Shown piece after piece: positions 30,349 to 58,919 of a DNA stretch of 64,000 nucleotides. The notes under the pieces were generated by a model. The model had not been told where the DNA came from and searched no databases. It saw nothing but the letters and a program-made list of their open reading frames with translations. Each line of letters begins with the position of its first letter. Positions within the stretch are counted from its first letter, which is position 1. The stretch comes from a virus, in IMG/VR virus record IMGVR_UViG_3300045988_179622; one strand, written 5' to 3'. A program made the position numbers and the translations under genes.

Positions 30349-30419
30349 AGCACTAGATGGGAGTCGAACCCACCACTTCAGATTGGAAGTCTGATGTTTT
30401 ACCGATAAACTACTAGTGC
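30349..30419 (-). tRNA. tRNA-Gly (anticodon UCC)
   Basis: Acceptor GCACTAG/CTAGTGC, anticodon stem TCAGA/TCTGA, loop CTTCCAA, T-arm GTGGG-TTCGACT-CCCAT, discriminator U. Confidence 0.75.
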
Positions 30420-30462
30420 AGTTTATTTTACATTTTTCTAAAGGTATAGGTTTATACCTGTA

Positions 30463-30498
30463 GGTTTACACCTGTGTCATTTCGCATCCTTCTAAAAC
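30463..30498 (-). CRISPR. single CRISPR-like repeat (plus a partial copy at 30448-30462) next to leader-like element copy 1
   Basis: ggtttacacctgtgtcatttcgcatccttctaaaac. This is the same family as the 36-bp array repeat. Confidence 0.4.
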
Positions 30499-30499
30499 C

Positions 30500-30703
30500 T
30501 CAAAAGTTCTTTAGATTATATGCTTAACTTATATTTACAAGTGCTTTATGACTTTTTAGTTTCAAAGGACAAAACCCTTGCCCTCTACTTGCTTCGCTCT
30601 CTTACCTTAGATTAAACTAAGTAATAAGTAATAAGAAGTTCCACCAAACACTTTTCCTTTTCTTTTAACTTTTTATACACCCCTTAAGTATCGTATGTCC
30701 CCT
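30500..30703 (-). other. conserved leader-like element copy 1 (about 200 bp), ending in the promoter-like motif
   Basis: Near-identical copies lie at 31192-31414 and 31739-31929. All contain acaagtgctttatgac...caaaggacaaaacccttgccctctac...ccccttaagtatcgtatgYcccc. Confidence 0.6.
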
Positions 30704-30893
30704 CTAATAACTAATTCTATCTATATAAACCACTAAATTAATTATTTAATTGGGGCTTTATTTATTTGTTTACTCAACTTGTCGGTTTTTCCGACAGGTT
30801 CAAATGTATATTTTGTATATTTAGGTTTTACACCTATGTTATGTTTGCTTCCTCATAATCACTTTGGTTATAAGATTATTGAAATTCCCTCAA

Positions 30894-43640: not shown

Positions 43641-46289
43641 TCACTTCCATTCTGCTATATTATCTAGTATTTTACCTAATTGTCCATTTGGTACTGGTAC
43701 TCTATCTAGTGTCTTATTCCCTGTTACCCCTATATCTAGCGTGATTACATCTTTCTTCGCTTTCTTTATTAACTTACTCACATTTGGATTTACTACATTT
43801 GTTTTACTTCTGTTTAATACCCAATAAACACTATCTAGTGCAAATCCATAGTGTGCTAGTTTTAAGCACATTCCCCTCACATCACTTACTTCATTTTGTG
43901 TGACTACCAAAGGTACTGTGCTTGCTCTAAGTATACTTGTTACCACAATATCTGTTAAACTGTTACTCATCCCTAATTTTCCTAAATCTATGATTATGTA
44001 GTCATATTTAGTTGCATATGCTGTTAATAACCCTCCTATATCACTTGTTATTAACTTTGGAAGTAGCTCAGGTGCATATAAACCACTAAAGTAATCTAAC
44101 CTCTTTACCTGTCTCGTCTCTACATTCTGTACTATATCCTCTAATATACTGGTGTTTGTACTATCTACTCCCTTTGCTAAGTAATACCCTAGACTAGTGC
44201 GTTGCATTGGTTCTTGTAAGTCTAATTCCAATATAGGGTTCTTCTGCATATATTTATCTAACTTTGGACTGTCTAAGTCAAAATCCATTACTAACACATT
44301 CCCTAATGTTAAAGACTTGGCTATACTTGCTGTTATGTTACTTACTCCATAACTACCTGTCCCTATTACTGCTATTATCTTAGCTTGTCCTGTGTATTTA
44401 CATACCATATTCCCTGCTTGTCCTGCTAGTTGCTTATAATATGCTACACTCTCTTTTAATTTCGTGTTTTCGTTCTGTATCTTACTTATGCTTGTCTTTG
44501 CATTTGCTACAGCTCTTATATCGTCTAACTGTTCTTGTAACTTTATCTCTAACTGTGATACCCTTTCCTCAGCCTCTTTCTTCTGAGTTTCTATTACTTC
44601 TTTTTCACTAGCTAAACTATCTATTTCCTTTTTTGCAAGCTCTAGCTCTTTTTTCGCTTCATTTAAACTTGCTTCTTGTTCTACCTTATATACTGAAATG
44701 CTTTCATAGTCGTTCTGTATCTTCGCTTTACTTTCCTTTAACTGAATATTCTCATTCTCTAAATCTGTATATCGGCTCTCTCTTTCCTCTAAATATTTAT
44801 TCCTATCCTCTAACTCCTTGACTGCCTCCCTTACATTTCTTTCTCCTATGTTTTTCGCTTCAGTTAAACTTACTCGTAACTCTTTAATTTCTTCACTCGA
44901 TTTTTTTACTCTATCTTTCTCTTTTTCATATCTTTCTTCTAACCCTTTTTTCTCACTCTCTATCTTCTCTATTTTATTATTTAACTCGTTTAAACTATCC
45001 CTTAAACTATCTATCTCTTTATTCGCTCTATCTAACTTTGTTTTTAGCTCTACTCTGTTTTCTTGGAATATATCTAACTGTGCAACTGCTTTTTTCCTTG
45101 CAGTTGTTTCTTCTGTTAAACGCTCCTCTAAATCCCTATTGTCCTCTGTTACAAGAGATATTTTGGTTTCTAAACCACTTACTTTTGCATCACTATCACT
45201 AAGTTGCTTTCCTATTCTCTCTAACTCAAACTTTAAACTCGCTACTTCTTTTTCTTTTCGCTGTATTTGTTGCTGTAACTGTATCTGTATTTGTTGCTCT
45301 TTCTGTTGTTTTTCTTCTTCTTCTTTCGCTTCTTCCTCTTTTATACTTCCTCTTTCACTTTCACTTTCACTTTCACTTCTCTTTTTATATTCTTCATATT
45401 CTTTTATCTTCTCACTTAAGTCTTTTTCACTTACTCTTGCTCTATCTAACTGCTGATGTAAACTATCTATCTCTGCGTTTAATCGCTTAAACTCTAATTC
45501 TATTTCTGTATTATTATTATTATTGTTGTTGTTGGTAGTAGTAGTAGTAGTTTTATTATCGGTGTCTACACTAACACAAATATCTTCATTTTCTTCAGCA
45601 TCTTCTTTATTTAGGTTCTTTTCTGATAAACTATCTTTTTCGTATTTCCCTAATACCCTATTGTCTTTCTCGTTTTCGACTTCTACTTCTACTTCTTTAG
45701 TTTTGACATCTGCTTCTACTTCGGCTTCTGTTTTAACTTCTGTGTTTATATCTATATTTGTACTAGAAATATGCTCTAATAAGGCTGTTTCTGTGTCTAT
45801 CCCTGTCACTGTCCCTGTCTCTGTCCCTGTTTCCGTTGTTGAACCTGAACCTGAAACTGAACCTGAAACTGAACCTGAAACTAAATCTATGTCCAAATCT
45901 AAGTCTAAACCTAAACCTAAATTGTCCTCTCTTTCAATTCCTTTGACAGCACTATGCTCCGTATCTGTACTCTGATAAACTAATTTCTCTATCTCTGCTT
46001 TATCTGAAGTACAAATGTCACACATTTCTACTAAGCCTTCTAACTCCTCTTTTGCTATCTTCTCTGTATAAACATATATAGGGACAGCCTTTTCTCTTAA
46101 CTTGTTAAACAACTTCTTTGCTATCCCTTTTTCTATTTCTTCTGTATGCTCCACTATAAGTGTCGCTCTATACTCTGCCTGCTCCATTAACTTCTCTACT
46201 TCTTTATATGTCAAAGCTCTCTGACACTTTACTTGGGGTAGGTAGAGCATTACTTTATTCCCTACTTTGAATATATATTCCAAATTCAA
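43641..46289 (-). CDS. large coiled-coil protein with a degenerate MinD/ParA-like (TadZ/CpaE-like) C-terminal domain
   Basis: N-terminal receiver-like region, about 400 aa of E/K coiled coil, then KIIAVIGTGSYGVSN (degenerate deviant Walker A) and VLVMDFDLD. Confidence 0.45.
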   Translation of the reverse strand: MNLEYIFKVGNKVMLYLPQVKCQRALTYKEVEKLMEQAEYRATLIVEHTEEIEKGIAKKLFNKLREKAVPIYVYTEKIAKEELEGLVEMCDICTSDKAEIEKLVYQSTDTEHSAVKGIEREDNLGLGLDLDLDIDLVSGSVSGSVSGSGSTTETGTETGTVTGIDTETALLEHISSTNIDINTEVKTEAEVEADVKTKEVEVEVENEKDNRVLGKYEKDSLSEKNLNKEDAEENEDICVSVDTDNKTTTTTTNNNNNNNNTEIELEFKRLNAEIDSLHQQLDRARVSEKDLSEKIKEYEEYKKRSESESESERGSIKEEEAKEEEEKQQKEQQIQIQLQQQIQRKEKEVASLKFELERIGKQLSDSDAKVSGLETKISLVTEDNRDLEERLTEETTARKKAVAQLDIFQENRVELKTKLDRANKEIDSLRDSLNELNNKIEKIESEKKGLEERYEKEKDRVKKSSEEIKELRVSLTEAKNIGERNVREAVKELEDRNKYLEERESRYTDLENENIQLKESKAKIQNDYESISVYKVEQEASLNEAKKELELAKKEIDSLASEKEVIETQKKEAEERVSQLEIKLQEQLDDIRAVANAKTSISKIQNENTKLKESVAYYKQLAGQAGNMVCKYTGQAKIIAVIGTGSYGVSNITASIAKSLTLGNVLVMDFDLDSPKLDKYMQKNPILELDLQEPMQRTSLGYYLAKGVDSTNTSILEDIVQNVETRQVKRLDYFSGLYAPELLPKLITSDIGGLLTAYATKYDYIIIDLGKLGMSNSLTDIVVTSILRASTVPLVVTQNEVSDVRGMCLKLAHYGFALDSVYWVLNRSKTNVVNPNVSKLIKKAKKDVITLDIGVTGNKTLDRVPVPNGQLGKILDNIAEWK

Positions 46290-46626: not shown

Positions 46627-47298
46627 TTAGTTTATGTATTCTACACTTTCGCCTGATTTTGCTCGACTATCCTCTCGTATAATAGATATTAATTCTGATA
46701 CCCTACTCCTAATTGTTATCTTCTGTTCCATACTTGGTAACTCTGGTAACTTTAGTTTTGTATAATCTAACATAGGAGAATATTTTTCATACTGTGTATC
46801 ACTTACCTTATATGTTTCTCCTGTTCTCTTTATCTCCTTTACTGTCTGTGGGAAGCCATCAAACTCTACCCACCTAATCATATCAGTATCATAACTTCTA
46901 TTATCATATTTCATATATTGCTTAGTGTAGAAAAATAACACTTTCTTGAATACACCATCACATACGCTTAGTAATTCTTGTATGTCCTTTCGTGCTTTTC
47001 CTGTATATAGCTCGCCCATTCCTTGTTCTATGATAACTAGCCTTACAGCTTGTTTATGTGTAAGCATATAAACATTTACATCATCTATGTTATAATAAAC
47101 TTTCTCTGCATATATTCCTTGCTGGGCAAAATATTCCGTTAATAATCTGTTCGGACTCTCTGTTAAGATAACTAAACTAATATCCCCAGAGTCTACAGGT
47201 ATTCTATTAGCCTCTATCTGCTCCTCTATGCTCTGTGGTGGTCTGAAATACCTTTTAATTACTTGTTTTACCTTTTCAAGCATATATTTTCTATTCAC
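46627..47298 (-). CDS. hypothetical protein
   Basis: 223-aa ORF. Confidence 0.4.
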   Translation of the reverse strand: MNRKYMLEKVKQVIKRYFRPPQSIEEQIEANRIPVDSGDISLVILTESPNRLLTEYFAQQGIYAEKVYYNIDDVNVYMLTHKQAVRLVIIEQGMGELYTGKARKDIQELLSVCDGVFKKVLFFYTKQYMKYDNRSYDTDMIRWVEFDGFPQTVKEIKRTGETYKVSDTQYEKYSPMLDYTKLKLPELPSMEQKITIRSRVSELISIIREDSRAKSGESVEYIN

Positions 47299-47644: not shown

Positions 47645-49522
47645 TTATTCTAATTTACCAACTAATTCTGCAAACTCATTTCCTGTCATTGTCTCTTTTA
47701 ACAACAACTGCTGTGCTAATTCTTCCAATAAACTCTTATTATCAATCAACATTTCTTCTGTGCTTTTTTTTAGTTTCTTTAGTAGCTCCTCTACCTTCTG
47801 TTCGGAATTATATAACCAGTTAGCACTACAAGTATAATTACTACTCCCTAAGTAATTGCTTGGTGTCATTCCACTATATATTGTATCGGACATACCATAT
47901 GTAAGCACATATCTCTTAGCTATTGCTGTGGCTTGCTCTAAATCATTTGATACTCCTGTTGTCGTTGTCCCTATAAATAGTTTCTCAGCACACATTCCTG
48001 CTAACGATACACTTATTTGATTTTCTAAGTCCTCTGCTGTTTGTAAGTGCTGTTGTTCTTCTGTAGGCGTATGCAAAATATAACCTAATGCACCATTTGT
48101 TCTCGGTACTATACTTATTTTTGATAGCGTATTTTTTCCTGATAACTTATATTGTGTAAATGCGTGTCCTACCTCGTGATATGCTATCATTCTTCTTTCT
48201 TCTTCACTTAATGCTATACTCTGTACTTCCTTACCTGTAAGCCTTACCTCAAAAGCAGAATATAAATCACTCTCATCTACTTCGTTATTTCCTCTCTTTA
48301 ATGCAATAAAAGTAGCTTCATTGACAATGCTCTGTAAATCTGCTCCTGATAAACCAGCACTTATTACAGCTAAATGATGTACATTTAAACCTTCTTTACA
48401 TTTAATTCCCTTTAAATGAACTTTAAGTATATCTTCTCTACCTTGTACATTAGGTAATTGCATAACTACTTTTCTGTCAAATCGCCCTGGGCGTGTAAAT
48501 GCTGGGTCTAATTCCTCTGGTCTATTTGTTGCTGCTATTACAACTATGCTAGAACTCTCCGTAAATCCATCCATTTCCTTCAGTATCTGTGTTAATGTAC
48601 TATCTCTCTCTGAATTACTGTCTGATGTTCTGCGTTGTCCTACACTATCTACTTCGTCTATAAATACTATACAAGGACTGTTTTTTCTAGCTTCACTAAA
48701 TAAACTCCTTACTCTTGAAGCTCCCACACCCACAAACTTCTCTACAAAGTCTGAGCCAGCTACTTGTATGAAATTTACTCCTGCTTCACCTGCAACTGCT
48801 TTAGCTAATAATGTTTTTCCTGTTCCTGGAGGTCCGACTAATAATACTCCTTTTGGACTTTTCGCTCCTATTTCTCTATATTTTTTAGGTGCTTTTAAGT
48901 AATCTACTACCTCCTGTACACTCTCTATTGCTTCCTCTTGTCCTGCTACATCGCTAAACCTTGTACTTACACTTGTGCAGTCTGTTTTCTTTACTCTATG
49001 TGGTAACATATTCTGTATTAGTATAAGTAACAATAGTAGGGGGAATAGTATTCCTAAAAACTGCATTATGACCATTAGAAGACCTTTTCCATTACTATTA
49101 ATATCCACGGTTCTATAGAACTTTACATTGTGTTCTAGTAGTTTGTTATATACATCTTCATAATCTAAATATCCACAACTTACTTTCTTTCCGTCTTTTA
49201 ATGTGATTTCTAGGGTCGTTGTCGTAGACTTTGTGGCAAAATTACACTCAGCTACTTTATCTTGTTCGATTAAAGATATAAACTCTGAATATCCTATCTC
49301 TGTTGGCTGTAAAGTTGTTGTATTTGTACTTGTTTCTGCTTCTTCTGCTTCTTCTTCTGGTGTTGTTATTGTCGTTGTTGCTGTCGTTGTCGTTGTCGCT
49401 ACTCCTACTACTGACTCCTTAACAGTAGACTCGGCAAATACATTACTTATAATACAACAGATAAACAGCATTGTTGTAATTATTATCTTAAATAACGGCT
49501 TAGTTACATTTCTCTTATACAT
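47645..49522 (-). CDS. ftsH: FtsH-like AAA+ zinc metalloprotease
   Basis: N-terminal TM segment, Walker A GPPGTGKT, second region of homology, and HEVGHA zinc site. The extracytoplasmic region carries a poly-Thr linker. Confidence 0.8.
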   Translation of the reverse strand: MYKRNVTKPLFKIIITTMLFICCIISNVFAESTVKESVVGVATTTTTATTTITTPEEEAEEAETSTNTTTLQPTEIGYSEFISLIEQDKVAECNFATKSTTTTLEITLKDGKKVSCGYLDYEDVYNKLLEHNVKFYRTVDINSNGKGLLMVIMQFLGILFPLLLLLILIQNMLPHRVKKTDCTSVSTRFSDVAGQEEAIESVQEVVDYLKAPKKYREIGAKSPKGVLLVGPPGTGKTLLAKAVAGEAGVNFIQVAGSDFVEKFVGVGASRVRSLFSEARKNSPCIVFIDEVDSVGQRRTSDSNSERDSTLTQILKEMDGFTESSSIVVIAATNRPEELDPAFTRPGRFDRKVVMQLPNVQGREDILKVHLKGIKCKEGLNVHHLAVISAGLSGADLQSIVNEATFIALKRGNNEVDESDLYSAFEVRLTGKEVQSIALSEEERRMIAYHEVGHAFTQYKLSGKNTLSKISIVPRTNGALGYILHTPTEEQQHLQTAEDLENQISVSLAGMCAEKLFIGTTTTGVSNDLEQATAIAKRYVLTYGMSDTIYSGMTPSNYLGSSNYTCSANWLYNSEQKVEELLKKLKKSTEEMLIDNKSLLEELAQQLLLKETMTGNEFAELVGKLE

Positions 49523-49620: not shown

Positions 49621-50859
49621 TTATCTTGTTATTGAGAATACTATCCTACCTGTTTCTCCATTTGTAGAACTTGTATCTCCTCCACCTGTCATCTCTCCTA
49701 ATGAATTTTCTAGCTTGTATTTATTCGCTTGTCCTGCTAGGGCTTCGCCCTCTGCATTAGCATCTTTATAACCTCTTGCACCAGATACTTGCTTTCCACC
49801 GTCCCATAGCATTTCTTCATCAGTCACTCTGTCTGTGTTCGGTGTATATTCACCACTTACCTCTCTTTCTGCACCATATGCACCACTTAGCATCCAAGTA
49901 GCAAATCTTCGCCAAGGTGTAATTCCTTCATACCTTATAGGTACTTTATATGTCAAATATGCTACCATTGCATACCTTTCATTATCTATAGAGTCTTGTA
50001 TCTCTGTATCTGTATTTGTTAAGGCATTGTCACTAAATACCTCTCCTGCACTTATATGCAATGTATCTGAATAAACTTTCATATCTTCTTCTGAGTTCAT
50101 ATCTAACAGTTTATAATTTACCTGTACCTCTAACTCGTCTATGTAAATTCGAAAACCTTTCCATAAGATATACACACCTTTATTATCTCTGTGTAGATTT
50201 GTTATTGTCTGCTTTGTTCCATTTGTCCCGTCTAACAATCCACTTGTTGCTTCACTATCTAAGTTTGCTATATGCTTACCCTCACTCATTAGCTCTGTTA
50301 CCATCCATTTAGACATTCCTGTTATTGTGTTAGGCTCTAGGTATGGTATCCCTAAGTTCATCGGTGTATAGTGATAGTCTCTATATATTTCTCCGATAAA
50401 CGAATCTTGAAGTAAATAATTCAAGTTTATAAAATAATCTTTGGGCATTACTACACTTCCTGCAGTATTTGTTACTCCTGTTCCGTTTGCAAACTGCTGT
50501 ATTGTATACCCTGCATTACTATATAAATAATTCCATATAGCTTCCTCAGTCGTATTTCCACCATATATTTGATTAGCAACATTTAGAGTTGCTCCATTAT
50601 ATCCACTTGTATAGGTATCATCACTACCTTCCTTTGTGCCATATAGTATTGGAAAATAGGTTTGTGGGTTTCCACACCTTGCAAAGCTCTCATCAGAAAA
50701 AAGTAAACAAGATTGGTAAATTCCTGTTTTCATATATCCCTTAATTCTATGTGCATTTGTCTGTACATTTAAGTATTCCAACACCACCGTACATAAAGTC
50801 ATTACAAGAAACATTATGAAAAATACCCTAAATACATCTCGTACTACCTTACTCGACAT
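49621..50859 (-). CDS. membrane-anchored or secreted protein (possible TadG-like or pilus-associated)
   Basis: N-terminal hydrophobic segment and position at the end of the tad-like cluster. Confidence 0.35.
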   Translation of the reverse strand: MSSKVVRDVFRVFFIMFLVMTLCTVVLEYLNVQTNAHRIKGYMKTGIYQSCLLFSDESFARCGNPQTYFPILYGTKEGSDDTYTSGYNGATLNVANQIYGGNTTEEAIWNYLYSNAGYTIQQFANGTGVTNTAGSVVMPKDYFINLNYLLQDSFIGEIYRDYHYTPMNLGIPYLEPNTITGMSKWMVTELMSEGKHIANLDSEATSGLLDGTNGTKQTITNLHRDNKGVYILWKGFRIYIDELEVQVNYKLLDMNSEEDMKVYSDTLHISAGEVFSDNALTNTDTEIQDSIDNERYAMVAYLTYKVPIRYEGITPWRRFATWMLSGAYGAEREVSGEYTPNTDRVTDEEMLWDGGKQVSGARGYKDANAEGEALAGQANKYKLENSLGEMTGGGDTSSTNGETGRIVFSITR

Positions 50860-50950
50860 TTCCTCTTTGTCACCTCACTTCACTTCACTTCACTTCATTT
50901 CACTTTATCTTTTCAGTTAATTTCCTTCTCCTATTTTTTTATTGTTATAT

Positions 50951-51661
50951 TTACTGTAAGTCTGGATAATACTTTGTTCCTACAGTTACATCTTGTAACT
51001 TTATTAAAGTTAATTCATCTAAACCTACCTTATAATAATCCCTGTCTACATTTCCATCTCCCCACATATGTAGAAAACTTTTTAATCTACCAAAAGTCTT
51101 CCCTAATGTCAATGTTACATCGGTTTCTATAACTACGGGACTTCCACATTGTCTCCTTAGTGTACCTGTATCTTCATCTAACAAGATTACTCTATCATCA
51201 CCTTGTATTACTCCCATAAACGGTATTTCAATACCCTCTGTTGAAACTACTGAACCTATATGTTTTAAATCTGTTTCTGATACTAAATTCTTAACTTGAC
51301 TGTCTGTGTATCTTGCTGTTGTAAAGGTACTTCCTCCTCCTCCAGTCGTTTCTGTCGATGGCACTAAAGTATCTGTTGTCATTGTCGCTCCTGATGTATT
51401 AGCCCATACATCGACACTTAAGTTAGACATCATACTACCTTCACTAGGTAAATCCTCTGCTAAACCCTTAAATATACTGACAATTTCTTCCCTCGGTAAA
51501 TAATTATACTCTGTGGCTACATCTATCAACTGTCTATGATATGTGTGTATTATATGTAACATATAAGCTGTCATTATTCCATACGAGATAAACATTATGA
51601 TAAATGTGTATGCAAAGGTCTTAAATAACACTTTAAATGTACCTGTAACTAAATCTGTCAA
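50951..51661 (-). CDS. membrane-anchored protein, paralog of 51827-52537 (possible minor pilin or pseudopilin)
   Basis: N-terminal TM. The C-terminus YYPDLQ is shared with the paralog (YYPDRQ). Confidence 0.4.
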   Translation of the reverse strand: MTDLVTGTFKVLFKTFAYTFIIMFISYGIMTAYMLHIIHTYHRQLIDVATEYNYLPREEIVSIFKGLAEDLPSEGSMMSNLSVDVWANTSGATMTTDTLVPSTETTGGGGSTFTTARYTDSQVKNLVSETDLKHIGSVVSTEGIEIPFMGVIQGDDRVILLDEDTGTLRRQCGSPVVIETDVTLTLGKTFGRLKSFLHMWGDGNVDRDYYKVGLDELTLIKLQDVTVGTKYYPDLQ

Positions 51662-51826
51662 CTTTTTCTACCTCCTCCCTTTTTATATTTATTTAACTAA
51701 TTGTCTTTGTCTTATTTTCCATTATTTCTTTCATTTTCTATTGTCTATTGTCTTACAACAACAAAAAATAGTTTACTCTGTAAATGTATTTGCACCTGCA
51801 CCTACCACCTACAACTGTTAATTTAT

Positions 51827-52537
51827 TTATTGTCTATCTGGATAATACCTCAAACAAGGAAAAGCATATTTACTCACTATCTCAAACCTAGAATTGCGAT
51901 AACCTATATCCTTTCCATTAAACCCTCTTTGTAATCTATTTGTACCATATGTGCTAAATAAACCTGTGTATTGTGTGATTGGTGTATCTATTCCTTTCCA
52001 TTCACTTACACCACCTACTCCCTGCATATCAGTTGAACCACTTCCATTCTCTCCATACACCGTATTTACTGTTGCATATGGTATGTAAGGCACAAACTTC
52101 CAAGTAATATATACTGGGTATACATCCCCAAATTGGTAATCTATTTGGTTCTCATCTGAATATACATTGACTGTCACATTATACTTTAAGTCTGTATCAT
52201 CTTCTGTTGTATAATTCCTATATCTTGTTGTCATAATGTTACAGTACCCGTCTTTTGTAATAGTAGTTGTATTCTGGTTGTAGTCACTCCCACCTATTAA
52301 CTTAATTTCAGACACATTCGCATTTAAACACTTTAACTGCATTGTCGCTAAGGCTGGAACATATTCTTTCTTTATTGTATTGTTCTCTGCAACTATCCTT
52401 TGTACTTGATACGCATAATCACTTAACTTAATTGAATTATTTACAAAAGCAACTACATTTAAAAACAAATAAACCAAAGCTATTACAACAGGTATTCGCC
52501 ACAAGGTCTTAAATACTACATATATAAAGTTGCTCAC
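51827..52537 (-). CDS. membrane-anchored protein, paralog of 50951-51661
   Basis: N-terminal TM and C-terminal RYYPDRQ. Confidence 0.4.
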   Translation of the reverse strand: MSNFIYVVFKTLWRIPVVIALVYLFLNVVAFVNNSIKLSDYAYQVQRIVAENNTIKKEYVPALATMQLKCLNANVSEIKLIGGSDYNQNTTTITKDGYCNIMTTRYRNYTTEDDTDLKYNVTVNVYSDENQIDYQFGDVYPVYITWKFVPYIPYATVNTVYGENGSGSTDMQGVGGVSEWKGIDTPITQYTGLFSTYGTNRLQRGFNGKDIGYRNSRFEIVSKYAFPCLRYYPDRQ

Positions 52538-52734
52538 TTATACCTTAACCTCCTTACTTAATAAATTTAACATTGCTGTTACTACTAATCATTCCACTAT
52601 AGTATTAGCTACATAGTATATGTAACATATGCCCTCTACTTAATTCCCCTCAATTATTAATTATTGCAAAATAAAAAAGCAGGTGGAAAACCACCTGCTT
52701 AAATGTTGATTGACTATCTATGTAATAGATTTAA

Positions 52735-52998
52735 TTAGCTATTCCATTCACTAGCACCACCTACTGAGAGTGTATCATCGGCTGCTGTAGACTTAGCTGC
52801 AGATGTAGCACCTGCTGCACCATCACCATTAAGGTCAATAGATGTACCTGTACCTGCCTTAATACCAGCTTCAACTTTACCTACAATCTGACCGATAAAG
52901 TTAGGGAATAAAACATTAACACCGAAAGCTACTAAGAGGATACAGATAATTGCTGTACCAAGAATCTTAAAAATATTCTTTACCATTTGGGTTTTCAC
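52735..52998 (-). CDS. small pilin-like protein with an N-terminal hydrophobic helix
   Basis: 87 aa. The hydrophobic segment IFKILGTAIICILLVAFGV is followed by a G/A/T-rich region. The promoter-like motif lies 36 bp upstream. There is no canonical Flp G/XXXXEY motif. Confidence 0.4.
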   Translation of the reverse strand: MKTQMVKNIFKILGTAIICILLVAFGVNVLFPNFIGQIVGKVEAGIKAGTGTSIDLNGDGAAGATSAAKSTAADDTLSVGGASEWNS

Positions 52999-53175
52999 CT
53001 CCTTTGAATTTTTATTTCACTATAATGAAACCTAATGCCCCCTAACAAAGGAAGTGCGAAACTCAATATTCAGTTGTACGATATATTGTATAATAAAAAA
53101 TCTACCCCTCTTTATTCGTCAAGGGATAGATTTACATTTAGTATCTTTATTTTATTTACTTTTTATGTATTTTAG

Positions 53176-54255
53176 CTACATAATTCCACTCATACCACCT
53201 ACTAAATCTGGAATATATATAGCCATAGAAGAAACTACTGCTTGAAAAAGTAAAACCATAATTATTGCTCTTAGTACCATATTTACTTTTTCTATGATTT
53301 TATCCCCTCTATCCTCTAACTCTGCCTTTCGTGCTGCAACTAATTCTTTTCTAAAACCTATAAGCTCTTGCTTTACATTAGCACCGTCATATATCTGCTT
53401 TATTAATCTCATTAATGTACCAACTTCTGCTATTTCTCGGTAGTCCCTAGCTATAGGCTCTGTTGCATTATATTCACCTAATGTGTCTATATGGTTTGTC
53501 CATATTTCAACCATTTCGTGCATTTCTGGTGAATCTGTTGTCTTCCTATAAGAAGCTAGAAGTGTTGGTATAGGAGTTTCTCCTCCCATATATAAAGAAT
53601 AGTGCAATACCAAATAAACATCCATAAAATTAGCTCTAATTTCTGCATCCTTAGAGGTTACTATTCCTCTTATAATTATCATTGGCATTGTTAGTATCAA
53701 CCAAATTGACACTACTGCCATTATTATTCCTACTGATGCAGATACAAAAACTGCTATAAATATTGATATTGCTAACAAAACACCCAAAGTAAACACCTTT
53801 AAAGCATTATATTCCTCTAAGTGTAACGAATTTCCGTTTGGCAATTTAAACCCTGTTCTTTTTAAGTTATAGTCCATATAGTCTTTTAACTGTTTATTAC
53901 TTCTAAAGATTGACTTTTCAGTCCACTCTGTAATACTGTTTATAAAAGACATACTTCGCATTACCATTTCATCTTTTCTTCTTATTCTAGCCCTAATTGA
54001 CATAGCATACTTAACACCATTTCTGCTTAGTGTTGTTATGTTATATTGCTTTGCTATCATTATAACTAGAATTGCTATTAAAAGAACGGCTATACCAAGC
54101 ACAATAAACGGAATAGCATTACTCATATCCACCATACGCCAATTCACAGCATTTGTTCTCTGACTTACCTCGACACTTTGATGTAAAATTTCTCCTCCTG
54201 CTCGCTCTCTAGCTACTGTTTTAGCTAATAAATTAATCATCTCTTGTTTCCTCAC
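53176..54255 (-). CDS. TadC-like (GspF-family) pilus assembly membrane protein
   Basis: Polytopic membrane protein immediately after the TadB-like gene. Confidence 0.5.
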   Translation of the reverse strand: MRKQEMINLLAKTVARERAGGEILHQSVEVSQRTNAVNWRMVDMSNAIPFIVLGIAVLLIAILVIMIAKQYNITTLSRNGVKYAMSIRARIRRKDEMVMRSMSFINSITEWTEKSIFRSNKQLKDYMDYNLKRTGFKLPNGNSLHLEEYNALKVFTLGVLLAISIFIAVFVSASVGIIMAVVSIWLILTMPMIIIRGIVTSKDAEIRANFMDVYLVLHYSLYMGGETPIPTLLASYRKTTDSPEMHEMVEIWTNHIDTLGEYNATEPIARDYREIAEVGTLMRLIKQIYDGANVKQELIGFRKELVAARKAELEDRGDKIIEKVNMVLRAIIMVLLFQAVVSSMAIYIPDLVGGMSGIM

Positions 54256-54313
54256 CGTCCTATTTTTATGTTTTTTCTTTTTTCTTCTTTATTTATATTT
54301 ATTCATTCTTTCT

Positions 54314-55324
54314 TTACAAAGCTATAGCCCTTGCTCTAGTTACATTTACGAACTGGAATATAATCAATAAAGCATCTATTAACAAGATAATCTGTCCTGC
54401 TGGATTATGTAGATAAAATTCCCTTAAAAACGGAAAAATAATTAATCCTGCTAACAAGAATATCCCAATACCACCAGCAGCTAAAGCAAATTCCTGCATT
54501 GCTTTTTCAAATTTTCTTTTCATTGTATTTCTGATACCTGTTTTTATAGTATTAATTTCTACTATATCTTGAAATGTTCCCAATAACCCTTTTACTTCTT
54601 CTGTTTCAAATACAATACATTTCTTAATAAACTCATCTGCAACTGAACCTAATACTGTATTTAATTCTTGTAATGCTGTTTTAATGTGATAGTTTTTATA
54701 CTCTACATTGTCAATAAAATCTCTAAATTCAGCTCTTACTTCCAAAGGCATAAGGTCTATAGAGTTCTTTACTGCTACCAATGTACCGTCCTTAATATTA
54801 TTACAGATTATATTTTCGCTTTCTATTATCGCTTCTATTCTAATATCGTGTGATACATTAGCCTTTGTATATAAACCACAACCTATCCCTATTAATGCAA
54901 TAGGAAACACAAAAATAGTTAAATAAACTGCATTAAATACTAAAGTTGAAACTGCATATGATACAGCTAAAGCACTAAACAACAATATCCACATAAACTC
55001 ATATGGTGTGCAACCTTTTGCTTTTAACCCTAAATCAATTATCATATCATTCAAAAACCTATACAGCTTTACCTTTTTTTCTTTTTCGTGTATCCTTCCT
55101 ATTAGTATATCTCTCTGTAACCTAGTTTCTTGTCGATTAATTAATACCCCTAAATATTTAAACCCACCTAAACTAAGTGCTACAGTTATCTTTCCTAAGT
55201 TTACATCTAATACCTTAACTATTGCAATTAAGCATATAAAAGCAAACATTATTGATATAATTACTGTTAAACCACTAAAACTAATTCCTTTAGCTAATAG
55301 TGCAAACAAACCATTCTGTAACAT
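54314..55324 (-). CDS. TadB-like (GspF-family) pilus assembly membrane protein
   Basis: Polytopic membrane protein downstream of the CpaF ATPase. Confidence 0.5.
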   Translation of the reverse strand: MLQNGLFALLAKGISFSGLTVIISIMFAFICLIAIVKVLDVNLGKITVALSLGGFKYLGVLINRQETRLQRDILIGRIHEKEKKVKLYRFLNDMIIDLGLKAKGCTPYEFMWILLFSALAVSYAVSTLVFNAVYLTIFVFPIALIGIGCGLYTKANVSHDIRIEAIIESENIICNNIKDGTLVAVKNSIDLMPLEVRAEFRDFIDNVEYKNYHIKTALQELNTVLGSVADEFIKKCIVFETEEVKGLLGTFQDIVEINTIKTGIRNTMKRKFEKAMQEFALAAGGIGIFLLAGLIIFPFLREFYLHNPAGQIILLIDALLIIFQFVNVTRARAIAL

Positions 55325-55354
55325 TATTCATTCACCTACCCCTAGTTTCTCACT

Positions 55355-56869
55355 TTACTTACCATAATTTATACCATATCCTCGTATATTTTCTCCTGTA
55401 TATGTTTCAGGAAGTTCATCTTCGGTAGGTGGTTCAGATATAAAATCAAATTGTGACTTTGTAACACCTTCTAATGCCATTCTTTCTTGCAATTCTTGTG
55501 TTAAGCAACCTACTCTCTTGTGGTAGCCTTTTATATCTTTTACAAAGCCATTCTCGTCAAACTCTGTTCCAGTTACAATAAACTTGTATAAGTCGTTTAT
55601 ATCAGCTGCATTTGGGTTATCATCCTTTACACCCACAACTTCACTTATCTGTATAATCTTTCTTGTACCATCCCTCATTATCTTCTGTACGATTACTAAG
55701 TTACACAGACTTGTTATATTATATAAAGCTAGGTCTGAGGGTTCATTCCCACTCTCAGCTAAGTATGCTGTCAAAAATCGTTTTATTGCACCTTCACTAC
55801 TTCCTGCGTGGAAGGTACAGTTAATTGGGTGTCCTGCCTGCATTATCTGCATCCCTAACTTAAATTCTATATTAGTACGCAATTCACCAAAACATACAAA
55901 TGTAGGCGATAATCTTAAAATATGTGTCATAATATTCTGCATTGTTGGGTCTTTAGGTGTTGGGTTTTCTACTTCCTTCGCCTCCAAATGAAGTACATCG
56001 TTATACACACGACCTGTAGCTGTCTTAAATCTAAGGTCGATTTCAGATGGGTTCTGTGCTAATACAGTTCTTGTATCTGCTGGCATTTCCTGTAATATTG
56101 CATTATTCATTGTTGTCTTACCTGATGATGTAGGTCCAACTGTCATCCAAGTTAATCCACCTCTTGGGCATAAGGACAATAATCGTGCCATATTATCGCT
56201 TAATGTACCAAACTTAACAATATCTCCTAAACCCATCTTGTCCTTTTTAAACTTTCTAAGTACAAAGGAATTATATCTAGGTGCATTAGGCTCTTGTGGG
56301 TCTGGTGACATAGCTGTAAAATGTACGGCTGCAATTCTATAACCCTCTACTGTTCGTGCATTAACCAAAGCATCTTTCGGAGTTAGTTTTACATCACCCA
56401 ACAGCTTACGCATTATGATTTCTTGCTGTTCAGGAGAGTCAAAAGAAACAATATTCCCCTCTGTGTCAGTTAAATCTTTAACCCTACCTTTTATTTCAAC
56501 TTTTATCTCTTTACCATTTGCTCGAATTTCATATACATCTGGATTTTCCATAGCTTTTGAGAGAATACCATAGTCTGTAATATCCTCTACTAATTTATCT
56601 ATTACTTTACCTACTTCCATTCTATTCCCAGAAGTATAGTTTTCTATGCTTACGCTTTGATTTTGATTTACATAATCTGTAATTAGCTTTTTAATAGCAT
56701 CTTTTTTGGCTTCTACTTCTAAATAACGATAATCATTACTATTATTCTTTATAAACTCTCTACATCTAGTAGTGTAAGCTTCCATTGTCATACTCTGTGT
56801 TGCTTCTTGCATTGACTTAGAATCTGCACCTCTAGCTACCTGTAGTCCTATCAACCTTTCTTGGTTCAT
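55355..56869 (-). CDS. CpaF/TadA-type secretion ATPase (VirB11/GspE family)
   Basis: Walker A GPTSSGKTT, CFGELR Asp/Walker B box and His box. AGGAGG ribosome-binding site. Confidence 0.8.
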   Translation of the reverse strand: MNQERLIGLQVARGADSKSMQEATQSMTMEAYTTRCREFIKNNSNDYRYLEVEAKKDAIKKLITDYVNQNQSVSIENYTSGNRMEVGKVIDKLVEDITDYGILSKAMENPDVYEIRANGKEIKVEIKGRVKDLTDTEGNIVSFDSPEQQEIIMRKLLGDVKLTPKDALVNARTVEGYRIAAVHFTAMSPDPQEPNAPRYNSFVLRKFKKDKMGLGDIVKFGTLSDNMARLLSLCPRGGLTWMTVGPTSSGKTTMNNAILQEMPADTRTVLAQNPSEIDLRFKTATGRVYNDVLHLEAKEVENPTPKDPTMQNIMTHILRLSPTFVCFGELRTNIEFKLGMQIMQAGHPINCTFHAGSSEGAIKRFLTAYLAESGNEPSDLALYNITSLCNLVIVQKIMRDGTRKIIQISEVVGVKDDNPNAADINDLYKFIVTGTEFDENGFVKDIKGYHKRVGCLTQELQERMALEGVTKSQFDFISEPPTEDELPETYTGENIRGYGINYGK

Positions 56870-56924
56870 TTATCTTATTTTCCTCCTCTCTTTTCGCTTT
56901 TAATTAATATTCTAATTACTTTAT

Positions 56925-57983
56925 CTATTTATCTTTAGTTTCTAATTCTTCCAATTTATCTACATCAACCTTTTTCTTCTTTTCCTTTTTAACGGATTTT
57001 TCCTTACCTAAATCTTTAACAATTCTTTCATATCCACCTAATCTCAATATTTCATCTAAAATGTTACCTAAATTAGTACAATAAGTTTTAGACTGAGGTG
57101 TGAAATTTGTACCTTTCTCTAAGTAAATCTCACTATTTAAACCACTTTCGATTATTTTCGTATCAAAAGGCAATACACCTAATAAAGGTAATTCTAGTGT
57201 GTTAAATATCCTTTTCGGATAAAATACATCTGTTTTTTTATTTAATATAACTTTAAATCTCTTTGGCGTTACGCCTTGGGCTGCTAAACTTCTACTTAAT
57301 GTATCAAAGTTAGCCACACAGTTAATCCCTTCGTCCCAAACTGTATAATAAGCATCTGAGTGATATAGTGCTGTACCTACAATATCAAAGGATAAATCCA
57401 AAGGACAGTCTAGCATAATAACATCAAATTGATATTTTATCTTTCGAAATGCTCTCTCTAAATTCTCAGACGCATTTTTAGAGTCTAAGTCCAAATAGTT
57501 ATATAACACTCTATCGTGTGATGCTAGTATAGACAGATTTCCTTTATTCACAATACTTTCACCTATTTCATTCTTTCCTTGTAAAAACGAAACTAAGTCT
57601 GGTTGGTTTTCTGTATATCTAATATCAAACAAATAAGGTATTGTCGGAAACATAATATTTAAGTCTATGAGTAGAACTGTTAAACCTTGCTTAGATGCTA
57701 AATAAGCTAGATTAGAGACTACTGTACTTGTCCCTACTCCTCCAGCACTTCCAATAAAACCTAAGATGTTATCTACTAACTTTAACTTTGTATCTGTGCC
57801 TTTTCCTGATAACACTTCCAAAGAAGTTTTTAATAAATCATCGGCTCTTTGGCTAAATGTCTTATTACTATTTTCGCTATCTTTATTGTTGTTATTGTTA
57901 TTATTACCACTAAATAAACGCATTTCTTTTTTCCTCCTTCTCTCTTTCTTTCTGTTATTTACTGCCAATACTACTACTGCCAA
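56925..57983 (-). CDS. CpaE/TadZ-like MinD/ParA-family ATPase
   Basis: GFIGSAGGVGTSTVVSNLA deviant Walker A. AGGAGG ribosome-binding site. Confidence 0.65.
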   Translation of the reverse strand: MAVVVLAVNNRKKERRRKKEMRLFSGNNNNNNNKDSENSNKTFSQRADDLLKTSLEVLSGKGTDTKLKLVDNILGFIGSAGGVGTSTVVSNLAYLASKQGLTVLLIDLNIMFPTIPYLFDIRYTENQPDLVSFLQGKNEIGESIVNKGNLSILASHDRVLYNYLDLDSKNASENLERAFRKIKYQFDVIMLDCPLDLSFDIVGTALYHSDAYYTVWDEGINCVANFDTLSRSLAAQGVTPKRFKVILNKKTDVFYPKRIFNTLELPLLGVLPFDTKIIESGLNSEIYLEKGTNFTPQSKTYCTNLGNILDEILRLGGYERIVKDLGKEKSVKKEKKKKVDVDKLEELETKDK

Positions 57984-58049
57984 TACTACTACTACTACTG
58001 TTGGTATTGTTTTGGTATTTGTTTACCGTTTATTTTATTTTGTTTTGTT

Positions 58050-58919
58050 TTATTCTGCTGAACGCTGTGGTAATGCACATTCAAATGTAGCTTGTTTATT
58101 CTTATAGTAATAATACCTTTCGAGTTCCTCTGGTGATAACGCTACTAACAATGTAGATGGTGTTGTCTGTGCCTTCCACGCAGTATCATTATCTAAAGCT
58201 GATTGTTGTGCTGCTGGTAAACTATTATAATATGTATATAAATCCAACACAGAGTCTCCTGAACCATTTAACATATCAGCTATCATAATGTCATTGAAAG
58301 CTAATTCTGACTTAACTGTCTGTAAACTTTTATCTGTAGATACTTTGTTACCATACCCATCATCTACACTACTGCTAGACTGAATACTATATGTTGCATA
58401 AATATTTACTGTGTCCCCAGGAGATAGATAACTCTTGTATGTACTTAATATATCGTTTGCAATATCGAAACTTACTACTTCTTTCCCTGGGTAAGCATAT
58501 AAAACTGTATTTTTATTACTACTCTTTGCACTAATAAACTCTCTATACTGTGCGTAATCTCCTTGCATTAACGGATATGCTGCGAACTTACCTACTACAT
58601 CTGGCACTTCTGAATATAACATTATTCTTTTCTTTGTTGTTCCGTCTTTCTGGTCTACAACTGCTAAGTTCTCATATTCTGTCTTTAGCATATCGTATCT
58701 AACGAACATATCCTCTGTTATTGCTTGGTTTTTATATACATTTCTATTGAGTACAGCTACTGTAACCTTTTGCTGTGTTAAAAATGCCATCCAAGACACC
58801 CATATAATTAAAGCTCCTGTTACGACAATTAAACCTGCTATTGTCATATTTTTTCGCATTGTATTCGCACCTGGACTTGTTATACCTGCAAGCCTATTTC
58901 GTTCTCTCTTTATCTTCAA
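58050..58919 (-). CDS. CpaB/RcpC-like pilus assembly protein
   Basis: Single N-terminal TM then a beta-rich SAF-like region. First gene of the cluster. Confidence 0.45.
   Translation of the reverse strand: MKIKRERNRLAGITSPGANTMRKNMTIAGLIVVTGALIIWVSWMAFLTQQKVTVAVLNRNVYKNQAITEDMFVRYDMLKTEYENLAVVDQKDGTTKKRIMLYSEVPDVVGKFAAYPLMQGDYAQYREFISAKSSNKNTVLYAYPGKEVVSFDIANDILSTYKSYLSPGDTVNIYATYSIQSSSSVDDGYGNKVSTDKSLQTVKSELAFNDIMIADMLNGSGDSVLDLYTYYNSLPAAQQSALDNDTAWKAQTTPSTLLVALSPEELERYYYYKNKQATFECALPQRSAE

What the first reader, a model, noticed from the sequence alone, without database searches (positions are those of the whole stretch)
49621..58919. Complete Tad-like type IV filament (Flp-pilus-type) secretion cluster on a phage or plasmid-like element, flanked by FtsH and a lysin
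The minus-strand gene order is: CpaB-like, TadZ/CpaE-like ATPase (GGVGTS), CpaF/TadA ATPase (GPTSSGKTT), two GspF-family membrane proteins (TadB/TadC), an 87-aa pilin-like protein, two paralogous membrane-anchored proteins ending YYPD(L/R)Q, and a 412-aa membrane protein. Lacking a secretin fits a monoderm host. The putative pilin lacks the canonical Flp G/XXXXEY processing motif. No prepilin peptidase (TadV) is visible. An FtsH protease gene follows directly. The structural proteins may therefore be a divergent or new pilin family. The apparatus could serve adhesion, DNA uptake or transfer, or host-range functions for the mobile element.
Basis: partly seen in the sequence, partly recalled or inferred. 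Interest (0 to 1): 0.65.

Follow-up and report, generated by a model that had tools for sequence, protein, structure and literature searches.

The report
Tad-like pilus machine on giant gut element
A nine-gene set for building a Tad/Flp-type surface filament is a conserved core module of a large family of giant (up to about 720 kb) gut, rumen and other metagenomic DNA elements, and its filament-subunit candidates lack the cleavable leader and the processing enzyme that all known systems of this kind need.

The parts
58050..58919 (-). CpaB/RcpC-like bitopic protein (289 aa, one N-terminal TM segment)
   Evidence: The family profile A7 matches the PGAP-annotated CpaB of plasmid pMU3262 by hhalign (probability 93%, E 2.6e-7, 192 columns). 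Pfam RcpC and SAF and TIGR03177 hits are all sub-threshold. The gene is conserved in every related locus.
56925..57983 (-). TadZ-like MinD/ParA-family protein (likely true start at 57923)
   Evidence: Pfam AAA_31 E 1e-14, CbiA and ParA. Best PDB match is MinD 1g3q, E 4e-10. The Walker A reads AGGVGTST, with no P-loop Lys, like KGGVGAS in the Vibrio harveyi TadZ. There is no Shine-Dalgarno sequence before the TTG at 57983.
55355..56869 (-). CpaF/TadA-type secretion ATPase (504 aa)
   Evidence: Pfam T2SSE E 4e-18. PDB: CpaF 8rkd and 9e24 at E 7.5e-24 over residues 72-468, then archaeal GspE2 6e-15, FlaI 3e-12, VirB11 1e-7. More than 440 homologues, at 60-98% identity, on contigs up to 720 kb.
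54314..55324 (-). TadB-like platform protein with a GspF/PilC-fold cytoplasmic domain (336 aa, polytopic)
53176..54255 (-). Probable TadC-like second platform protein (359 aa, 4 TM segments)
   Evidence: Assigned by its position after the TadB-like gene. hhalign gives 47% (E 2e-4) to the pMU3262 protein in the TadC position, which itself has a weak T2SSF hit. No profile similarity to the 336-aa family. No structure was predicted.
52735..52998 (-). Major-subunit candidate: small pilin-like protein (87 aa; likely start at 52986, MVKNIFKIL...)
   Evidence: One N-terminal hydrophobic helix, the conserved motifs LPN and DLNGDG, and a variable C-terminal tail. Its N-terminal module is homologous to that of the 412-aa family (hhalign 92%, E 5.5e-7). 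It lacks both a conserved Gly(-1) and Glu5.
52677..52700 (-). Intrinsic terminator-like hairpin directly after the 87-aa gene
   Evidence: A 10-bp stem with 6 G-C pairs, followed by TTTTATTTTG. An equivalent strong hairpin plus T-run, of different sequence, follows the homologous gene in all nine other loci examined.
51827..52537 (-). Minor-subunit candidate, DUF4320/TadE-like N-terminus (236 aa, ends RYYPDRQ)
   Evidence: hhalign of family A5 against the pMU3262 DUF4320 pseudopilin gives 70% (E 4e-5), with Lys10 aligned to its Glu5. DUF4320 hits are sub-threshold in 2 of 11 members. The N-terminal module is homologous to the 412-aa family (90%).
50951..51661 (-). Second minor-subunit candidate (236 aa, ends KYYPDLQ)
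   Evidence: hhalign to the profile of the other 236-aa family gives 79% (E 1.7e-5, 88 columns). Pairwise BLAST is not significant. A second copy is also present in L006 and L007.
49621..50859 (-). Large minor-subunit or tip candidate in the TadG position (412 aa)
46627..47298 (-). Conserved downstream companion of unknown function (223 aa)
   Evidence: Homologues directly follow the 412-aa homologue in L004, L006, L008, L001, L017, L021 and L023. No Pfam, PHROG or PDB match. Its association with the module is inferred from synteny only.
43641..46289 (-). Conserved downstream companion: long coiled-coil protein with a degenerate MinD/BY-kinase-like C-terminal domain (882 aa)
   Evidence: Homologues lie downstream of the module in L004, L006, L008, L010-L021. 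The C-terminal 258 aa match VpsO only weakly (E 0.044). Its association is inferred from synteny only.

Best explanation
The cluster encodes a divergent Tad/Flp-type (type IVc-like) type IV filament machine adapted to a single-membrane (monoderm) host.

Proposed parts:
- a CpaB-like envelope protein;
- a TadZ-like, non-hydrolysing MinD/ParA organiser;
- one CpaF-type hexameric ATPase;
- a TadB/TadC-like membrane platform;
- one small, highly expressed subunit (87 aa);
- three larger subunits (236, 236 and 412 aa), all four sharing one N-terminal helix module.

Shown here: the identity of the ATPase, the GspF fold of one platform protein, the CpaB and TadZ affinities, the shared N-terminal module, the absence of the canonical prepilin signal, and deep conservation of the whole block in a clade of giant extrachromosomal elements.

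Inferred: the ATPase and platform extract the subunits from the membrane and polymerise them into a surface filament or short pseudopilus. The 87-aa protein would be the major subunit and the larger proteins would form a priming or tip complex.

The subunits are made essentially 'pre-matured': about 2-5 residues precede the position where prepilin peptidase would cut, and Lys/Arg or a variable residue replaces Glu5. The system would therefore need no prepilin peptidase.

The most likely role is cell-surface attachment or cell-to-cell contact that benefits the spread or persistence of the giant element. That role is the least certain step.
For: **ATPase.** It is CpaF-like. Top PDB hits are CpaF at E 7.5e-24; Pfam T2SSE.

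**TadZ-like partner.** It has a Walker A without the P-loop Lys, as in a canonical TadZ.

**CpaB-like protein.** hhalign gives 93% to an annotated CpaB.

**Gene order.** It equals the canonical cpaB..tadZ-tadA-tadB-tadC..tadE-tadF-tadG order. It also matches Clostridia plasmid loci that carry canonical Flp and DUF4320 pseudopilins.

**Subunit candidates.**
- The four proteins share a homologous N-terminal module.
- The 412-aa model has a 53-residue N-terminal helix plus a beta-sheet.
- Glu28 of the 412-aa protein sits 17 residues after the conserved Lys. This is the Glu5-Glu22 spacing seen in Vibrio TadE.
- A terminator follows the 87-aa gene in all 10 loci examined.

**Missing processing parts.** No Gly(-1) or Glu5, and no A24 peptidase or other polytopic ORF, in the window or within 10 kb in 10 relatives. 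The one exception is an extra polytopic ORF in L008.

**Conservation.** The whole block is conserved down to 46% ATPase identity.
Against: - No sequence profile (Pfam, NCBIfam, PDB) recognises either membrane protein as T2SSF.
- hhalign to Vibrio TadB, TadC and TadG finds nothing.
- The second membrane protein has only weak support.
- The 412-aa model has no significant PDB fold match.
- No model was made for the 87-aa or 236-aa proteins.
- In known type IV filaments, uncleaved prepilins with a positively charged N-terminus do not assemble, and Glu5 is usually needed in the major subunit. Filament formation from these proteins is therefore mechanistically unprecedented.
- A peptidase could be encoded elsewhere on the element or by the host.
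- Nothing here shows that a filament exists or what it does.
Confidence: 0.6

Rival explanations
1. The same machine acts as a conjugation-like mating or DNA-transfer apparatus of a giant plasmid. The Tad-like filament would bring donor and recipient together, or form the conduit, for transfer of the element's DNA.
For: The closest annotated analogue, Thermoanaerobacterium plasmid pMU3262, carries the same gene order directly beside an FtsK/SpoIIIE protein and a replication-relaxation protein. MOB-suite types it as MPF_T. The ATPase also hits the NCBIfam model 'TadA family conjugal transfer-associated ATPase' (E 4e-14). Related loci carry an actin-like (ALP/ParM-type) gene downstream, a plasmid-like trait. 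The element is absent from isolate genomes and is not chromosomal.
Against: No relaxase, FtsK/T4CP or VirB4 was found among the ORFs scanned in the 64-kb window or in the gene tables of the relatives. Relatives are catalogued as viral in IMG/VR. Window genes have jumbo-phage homologues.
Confidence: 0.2
2. It is not a filament. The ATPase and platform power a membrane-anchored complex of the four bitopic proteins, which stay in the membrane. Such a complex could serve protein export, envelope remodelling or egress, comparable to a T2SS-like piston or an archaellum stator.
For: The subunits keep a short, Lys-rich N-terminus with no cleavage site, which in known systems blocks extraction from the membrane. 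The 412-aa globular part matches no pilin fold significantly. Secreted cell-wall hydrolase genes lie upstream in several lineages.
Against: One small gene with a conserved terminator followed by larger genes sharing its N-terminus is the typical pilin / minor-pilin layout. The variable C-terminal tail of the 87-aa protein fits a surface-exposed subunit.
Confidence: 0.13
3. It is a VirB11-type type IV secretion (conjugative T4SS) module or a SpoIIIA-like sporulation channel, not a Tad system.
For: The ATPase gives weaker hits to VirB11, TrbB and DotB models. SpoIIIAB is among the fold matches of the 336-aa protein.
Against: CpaF scores about 16 orders of magnitude better than VirB11. No SpoIIIAA model is hit. 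CpaB-like and TadZ-like genes flank the ATPase. No VirB4, VirD4 or relaxase was found among the ORFs scanned. SpoIIIAB itself has the GspF fold.
Confidence: 0.03
4. It is an ordinary bacterial chromosomal tad operon, and the window is a piece of a bacterial genome rather than a mobile element.
For: One homologue is deposited as 'CpaF family protein [Lachnospiraceae bacterium]' from a MAG. The window also holds FtsH, flotillin and NrdD.
Against: A scan of one genome per species (185,579 species) found the ATPase only on two short contigs of one MAG. Most window ORFs have no family match. There are four orphan DNA methylases, scattered tRNAs, an intein/homing endonuclease and jumbo-phage-type genes. 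Relatives sit on 85-720 kb contigs, some of them IMG/VR viral.
Confidence: 0.04

Closest known systems
Tad/Flp pilus (type IVc pilus) systems, for example the Vibrio harveyi plasmid pvh1 tad locus (NZ_CP150468) and Caulobacter Cpa
   Same: - A CpaF-type ATPase, which is the best PDB match.
- A TadZ-type MinD/ParA protein with a Walker A that lacks the P-loop Lys.
- A CpaB-like protein.
- A GspF-fold platform.
- The gene order cpaB..tadZ-tadA-tadB-tadC, followed by three pseudopilin-position genes.
- An acidic or Asn residue at the +22-equivalent position of the N-terminal helix.
   Different: - No Flp pilin with G/XXXXEY, no Glu5 and no leader peptide.
- No TadV peptidase.
- No secretin, RcpB or TadD.
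- The platform and subunit proteins are unrecognisable by sequence profiles.
- The major-subunit candidate is about 83-87 aa, with a conserved DLNGDG loop.
- The system is carried by a giant extrachromosomal element.
Tad-like loci with DUF4320 pseudopilins on Clostridia plasmids (Thermoanaerobacterium pMU3262, NC_017998; Oscillospiraceae plasmid CP141730)
   Same: - A monoderm host and no secretin.
- The same order: cpaB, AAA/MinD-like gene, T2SSE ATPase, two roughly 300-aa polytopic proteins, a small subunit, then a DUF4320-type anchored protein.
- These loci give the best profile matches to the window's proteins.
   Different: - The plasmid subunits keep the canonical class III signal (ERG/ALTLLEW, KG/DLTIEL), and an A24 peptidase is present in CP141730.
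- ATPase identity is only about 27-29%.
- The window's anchored proteins are much larger (236-412 aa against 118-176 aa).
Type IV pilins and pseudopilins in general (PilA, GspG, ComGC, TadE/F/G)
   Same: A shared conserved hydrophobic N-terminal helix across several proteins of one locus. A long (about 53-residue) alpha-1 helix followed by a beta-sheet in the 412-aa model. A small, abundant subunit gene followed by a terminator.
   Different: No Gly(-1) cleavage site and no Glu5. Probably no N-terminal processing. The globular domain has no significant match to any solved pilin.

Membership tests
Tad/Flp (type IVc) pilus system | CpaF/TadA-family secretion ATPase | tested here: met
   Best PDB matches are CpaF at E 7.5e-24 over residues 72-468, against VirB11 at 1e-7. 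Pfam T2SSE E 4e-18.
Tad/Flp (type IVc) pilus system | TadB and TadC platform proteins, each with one GspF (T2SSF) domain | tested here: inconclusive
Tad/Flp (type IVc) pilus system | TadZ/CpaE: a MinD/ParA-family protein with a deviant Walker A | tested here: met
   AAA_31, CbiA and ParA hits. MinD is the best PDB match. AGGVGTST compares with KGGVGAS in the Vibrio TadZ. The N-terminal receiver-like domain of TadZ is absent.
Tad/Flp (type IVc) pilus system | CpaB/RcpC protein | tested here: met
   hhalign gives 93%, E 2.6e-7, to the annotated CpaB of pMU3262. The curated models are hit only below threshold.
Tad/Flp (type IVc) pilus system | Flp-family major pilin with a leader ending in Gly and a mature G/XXXXEY start | tested here: not met
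   In the 87-aa family, the longest possible ORF leaves at most about 6 residues before the helix. The Gly is not conserved (4 of 11 members) and there is no Glu5.
Tad/Flp (type IVc) pilus system | Dedicated prepilin peptidase (TadV/CpaA, A24 family) | tested here: not met
   No polytopic ORF other than the two platform proteins, and no tblastn hit, in the 64-kb window or within 10 kb in 10 relatives. The rest of the element and the host could not be searched.
Tad/Flp (type IVc) pilus system | TadE/TadF/TadG pseudopilins sharing the pilin N-terminal motif | tested here: inconclusive
   Position and number of genes match. The N-terminal module is shared among all four proteins. There is a weak DUF4320/TadE link. 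The processing motif is absent, and there is no profile match to Vibrio TadG.
Type IV pilin superfamily | Class III signal peptide cleaved after Gly, and a hydrophobic alpha-1 helix with Glu5 | tested here: not met
   The consensus of 136 diverse members of the 412-aa family is MSVKTIFKTLIGT..ExxN, with Lys at the Glu5-equivalent position. The 87-aa and 236-aa families behave likewise.
Type IV pilin superfamily | Lollipop fold: a roughly 50-residue N-terminal helix packed on an antiparallel beta-sheet | tested here: inconclusive
Conjugative type IV secretion system (VirB/Trb type) | VirB11 ATPase together with VirB4, a coupling protein and a relaxase | tested here: not met
   The ATPase prefers CpaF. 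No such genes were found among the window ORFs scanned or in the gene tables of the relatives.
SpoIIIA sporulation channel | SpoIIIAA ATPase with SpoIIIAB-AH | tested here: not met
   No SpoIIIAA model appears among the 17 NCBIfam hits of the ATPase. The SpoIIIAB fold match reflects the shared GspF fold.

The most novel reading that the evidence does not exclude
This would be a type IV filament system that needs no prepilin peptidase. Its subunits are translated already 'mature': about 2-5 residues precede position +1, and Lys or a variable residue replaces Glu5. It would serve as a core organelle of a very large, so far undescribed clade of giant (about 200-720 kb) gut, rumen and other metagenomic elements. 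Possible uses are cell-to-cell contact or transfer of the giant genome, or, if the elements are phages, the first phage-encoded pilus machine.
Probability: 0.3. Interest if true: 0.8.

Novelty: new variant of a known kind. Interest (0 to 1): 0.6.

Why it matters
All known type IV filament machines (pili, T2SS, competence pili, archaella, Tad) depend on a prepilin peptidase and on a conserved Gly(-1)/Glu5 subunit N-terminus. A conserved and widespread system that keeps the motor, platform, CpaB and TadZ but has replaced that signal would test which of these rules are truly required for filament assembly.

The module is also a universal marker of a large clade of giant elements that are common in human and animal guts (contigs up to 720 kb). 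Their nature, phage or plasmid, is unsettled.

A surface filament encoded by such an element would be a direct handle on how it spreads or how it changes host adhesion. Specialists currently treat CpaF-type genes as evidence against a phage origin (PMC13623518). The classification of these elements therefore matters too.

Tried and rejected
- **Alternative genetic code.** Recoding TAG, TGA or TAA barely changes coding density, so the standard code is kept.
- **Nucleotide similarity to GenBank phages.** None found.
- **Single-protein scan of IMG/VR.** Nothing found. The alignment-based scan worked.
- **Sequence profiles for the two membrane proteins.** Pfam, NCBIfam and PHROGs found nothing. 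A PDB profile search found nothing. hhalign to Vibrio TadB, TadC and TadG found nothing. hhalign between the two membrane-protein families found nothing.
- **Small subunit against plasmid Flp-like proteins.** hhalign found nothing.
- **Defence-system models (PADLOC).** Nothing relevant.
- **Idea that the 223-aa protein is a receiver-like domain split off from TadZ.** No PDB or Pfam support.
- **C-terminal domain of the 882-aa protein as ParA-like.** Only E 0.044 to VpsO.
- **Link to the oral 'Inocle' giant plasmids (PMC12340149).** Untestable, because no sequences or supplements are held. The main IMG/VR group has 46% GC, against 24-32% for Inocles.
- **Extra 172-aa polytopic ORF in L008 as a possible peptidase.** No Pfam hit.
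- **AFDB fold libraries.** Not available.
- **Word-index search with the 412-aa protein.** Only two hits, so the exhaustive search was used instead.
- **Literature searches.** Searches for Tad or pilus genes in huge phages, and for DUF4320, found no description of this module.

Full report
**1. The observation**

The whole 64-kb window has about 31% GC and a strongly skewed base composition, and essentially all its genes are on the minus strand. The standard genetic code fits; recoding any stop codon hardly changes coding density. FtsH follows the cluster at 47645-49522. The 'lysin' at 61784-63520 has only a sub-threshold NlpC/P60 hit. It is separated from the cluster by a RecJ-like DHH gene (PHROG RecJ-like, 1.8e-44) and a 280-aa secreted protein.

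**2. The surrounding element**

The window carries:
- four scattered tRNAs;
- an NrdD gene interrupted by an intein with a LAGLIDADG endonuclease, a family A polymerase fragment and a TnpB;
- four orphan DNA methyltransferases, a radical-SAM protein, RNase H, a PHP phosphoesterase and HipA-like kinases;
- a 796-aa ORF that matches phrog_33734 (2e-95) and has homologues in the jumbo phages XacN1, Xoo-sp13, SCTP-2 and Weasels2.

Most other ORFs match nothing. No virion gene, relaxase, coupling protein or VirB4 was found among the window ORFs scanned. The ATPase has more than 440 homologues, the best 120 at 60-98% identity. They lie on metagenomic contigs of up to 720,900 bp from human gut, rumen and other animal samples. 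The window's own 412-aa protein occurs unchanged on at least 24 contigs; the collection records it on contigs of up to 378 kb. More distant relatives (46-56% ATPase identity) sit on 12 IMG/VR 'viral' contigs of 85-295 kb with 32-47% GC.

A scan of one genome per prokaryotic species found the gene only on two short contigs of one Lachnospiraceae MAG. The module therefore belongs to a large clade of giant extrachromosomal elements. Whether they are huge phages or giant plasmids could not be settled. Downstream actin-like (ALP) genes in relatives are plasmid-like. The IMG/VR listing and the jumbo-phage-type genes are phage-like.

**3. Conservation of the module**

tblastn and blastp of the window proteins against all fetched loci show one constant order:

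DHH, CpaB-like, TadZ-like, ATPase, 336-aa membrane protein, 359-aa membrane protein, ~90-aa protein, one or two ~180-236-aa proteins, a ~320-420-aa protein, usually a 223-aa-type protein, sometimes an actin-like protein, then a ~720-880-aa coiled-coil protein.

FtsH lies next to the cluster only in the window's own lineage. Other lineages have a TnpB, a sigma factor or nothing there. FtsH is therefore probably not part of the system.

**4. Motor and accessory proteins**

- *ATPase.* It matches Pfam T2SSE (4e-18). Among solved structures it matches Caulobacter CpaF best (E 7.5e-24, residues 72-468). Archaeal GspE2 (6e-15) and FlaI (3e-12) follow, and VirB11 (1e-7), DotB and GspE come only later.
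- *TadZ-like protein.* Its neighbour is a MinD/ParA-family protein (AAA_31 1e-14; MinD 4e-10). Its Walker A, AGGVGTST, lacks the P-loop lysine, like KGGVGAS in the TadZ of a canonical Vibrio harveyi tad locus. It lacks TadZ's N-terminal receiver-like domain.
- *CpaB-like protein.* The first gene gives only sub-threshold RcpC, SAF and CpaB hits. Its family profile, however, aligns with the annotated CpaB of plasmid pMU3262 at 93% probability over 192 columns.

**5. Platform proteins**

Neither polytopic protein is recognised by Pfam, NCBIfam, PHROGs or a profile search of PDB sequences. None of 120 listed homologues of the 336-aa protein carries a Pfam domain.

An AlphaFold2 model of the 336-aa protein, built on 30 homologues (pLDDT 80), gave these results:
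- The only compact Foldseek matches were EpsF, PilC, OutF and SpoIIIAB.

This protein is therefore a GspF/PilC-fold platform protein, TadB-like. The 359-aa protein is called TadC-like only from its position and from a 47% hhalign match to the pMU3262 protein in the TadC position, which itself has a weak T2SSF hit. It shows no profile similarity to the 336-aa family.

**6. Subunit candidates**

Shared N-terminal module:
- All four remaining proteins have a single N-terminal hydrophobic segment.
- Profile comparisons show that their N-terminal regions are homologous: 87-aa family against 412-aa family 92% (E 5.5e-7); 236-aa family against 412-aa family 90% (E 1.5e-6); the second 236-aa protein against the first family 79%. 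Pairwise BLAST of the two 236-aa proteins is not significant.
- A shared N-terminal helix with unrelated C-terminal parts is the signature of the pilins of one type IV filament system.

The 412-aa protein:
- Its model (pLDDT 76.5, pTM 0.75) has a 53-residue N-terminal helix followed by a beta-sheet domain.
- The family has 166 clusters at 50% identity and no Pfam family.

Gene position and expression signal:
- In the canonical Vibrio locus, tadE, tadF and tadG follow tadC. This is exactly where the 236-, 236- and 412-aa genes lie.
- The 87-aa gene is followed by a strong hairpin plus T-run (52700-52677). An equivalent hairpin of different sequence follows its homologue in all nine other loci examined. 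This fits a highly expressed major subunit.
- Its N-terminal 60 residues are conserved, including LPN and a DLNGDG loop. Its tail is variable.

**7. What is unusual**

Canonical systems, including the Clostridia plasmid loci with the same gene order, have subunits with a leader ending in Gly and with Glu at +5: ERG/ALTLLEW, KG/DLTIEL and QKG/VTAIEF. One of those plasmids also carries an A24 peptidase. The window's proteins differ in several ways:
- The longest possible ORFs leave only a few residues before the helix, and Shine-Dalgarno sequences support these starts.
- In 136 diverse members of the 412-aa family the consensus is M-S-V-K-T-I-F-K-T-L-I-G-T...E-x-x-N, with the Met usually 2-4 residues before V-K.
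- The invariant Glu lies 17 residues after the conserved Lys. This is the spacing between Glu5 and Glu22 in Vibrio TadE; TadG also has Glu22 and TadF has Asp22. In that register, Lys occupies position +5 and only about three residues precede +1.
- hhalign independently aligns Lys10 of the first 236-aa protein with Glu5 of the pMU3262 DUF4320 pseudopilin.
- The 236-aa and 87-aa families have Asn at +22, as that DUF4320 protein does.
- No Gly is conserved at a cleavage position across the families.
- No prepilin peptidase-like or other polytopic ORF lies in the window or within 10 kb in ten relatives. The exception is an unmatched 172-aa ORF in L008.

**8. Interpretation**

The best-supported reading is a divergent Tad-type type IV filament machine for a monoderm host. 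It has no secretin, and its subunits are made without a cleavable leader.

- *Shown:* the identities of the motor, the CpaB-like and TadZ-like proteins and one platform protein; the shared subunit N-terminus; the loss of the canonical signal; the deep conservation of the block.
- *Inferred:* that a filament is built, that the 87-aa protein is its major subunit, and that it serves attachment or cell contact for the element.

Rival readings:
- *A conjugation-like role.* This is a serious alternative, because the closest plasmid analogue sits beside FtsK and relaxase-like genes.
- *A non-filament membrane complex.* This cannot be excluded, because uncleaved, positively charged N-termini block assembly in known systems.
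- *VirB11-type T4SS, SpoIIIA-like channel, or ordinary chromosomal operon.* These are disfavoured.

**9. Novelty**

Literature searches found no description of a Tad-like module in huge phages or of this protein set. A 2026 comment treats a CpaF-type gene as atypical for phages. I rate the finding as a new variant of a known kind: a Tad-type machine with non-canonical, apparently peptidase-independent subunits, fixed in a large clade of giant gut-associated elements.

Noticed in passing
window 19993-20067 (-), with ORFs 20384-21226 and 15965-17281: A RAGATH-18 RNA (51 bits, above the gathering score) lies about 320 nt downstream of a 280-aa DUF7666 ORF. It is not next to the TnpB-like ORF (OrfB_IS605 + Cas12f1-like TNB), which is 2.7 kb away. 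RAGATH-18-derived guide RNAs are reported with IS607 TnpBs, so this pairing looks atypical.
   Followed up: no
window 34294-38088 (-): A 1264-aa anaerobic ribonucleotide reductase (NrdD) carries an intein splicing domain and a LAGLIDADG homing endonuclease. A radical-SAM (NrdG-like) ORF lies at 10388-11281.
   Followed up: no
window 29560-32024: A 2.4-kb stretch without ORFs of 100 aa or more holds two tRNA-Gly(TCC) genes 1.2 kb apart (30349-30419 and 31539-31609). This may be a duplicated unit.
   Followed up: no
window 9053-9877, 23138-24079, 25799-26695, 32472-33092 (-): Four DNA methyltransferase genes (N6_N4_Mtase twice, D12 class, and an Eco57I/Dam-like gene) have no visible restriction partner. 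This fits the anti-restriction methylation typical of large mobile elements.
   Followed up: no
window 43641-46289 (-) and 46627-47298 (-); actin-like genes at L004:17119-18375 and L008:17879-19039: Conserved companions lie downstream of the module. One is a 720-880-aa coiled-coil protein with a degenerate MinD/BY-kinase-like C-terminal domain (GTGSYGVSN in place of a Walker A). Another is a 213-315-aa protein of unknown fold. In several lineages there is also an ALP/ParM-type actin-like protein. Together they could be a segregation or positioning system, possibly linked to the pilus module.
   Followed up: partly
L008:11522-12040: One rumen-derived relative has an extra 172-aa, five-TM ORF inserted between the ATPase and the TadB-like gene. 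It contains FIDIL and IGDIV motifs that are faintly reminiscent of the two Asp motifs of aspartic prepilin peptidases. It has no Pfam hit.
   Followed up: partly
window 27170-29560 (-): A 796-aa ORF of unknown function matches phrog_33734 (2e-95). It has homologues in the jumbo phages XacN1, Xoo-sp13, SCTP-2 and Weasels2 and in a 485-kb uncultured phage (LR745208). It could serve as a marker linking this element to jumbo phages.
   Followed up: partly
window 47645-49522 (-), 60871-61713 (-), 43641-46289 (-): Secreted or membrane proteins carry long homopolymeric runs (poly-Thr in the FtsH ectodomain, poly-Gln, poly-Asn and poly-Asp in the 280-aa protein, and poly-Asn and poly-Thr in the 882-aa protein). 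This is unusual for bacterial homologues of these proteins.
   Followed up: no
window 6109-7770 (-), 1734-2504 (-), 22061-22948 (-): A flotillin/SPFH protein and two HipA-like kinase-domain ORFs are encoded by the element.
   Followed up: no
phage record MW495066.1 (Microcystis phage MaAM05), hits H5 and H53: This 274-kb 'phage' record carries both a CpaF-like gene (27% identity) and an FtsH gene (47% identity). A 2026 comment (PMC13623518) argues that the related PhiMa05 genome is largely of cellular origin. That is a caution for classifying CpaF-bearing giant contigs as phages.
   Followed up: partly
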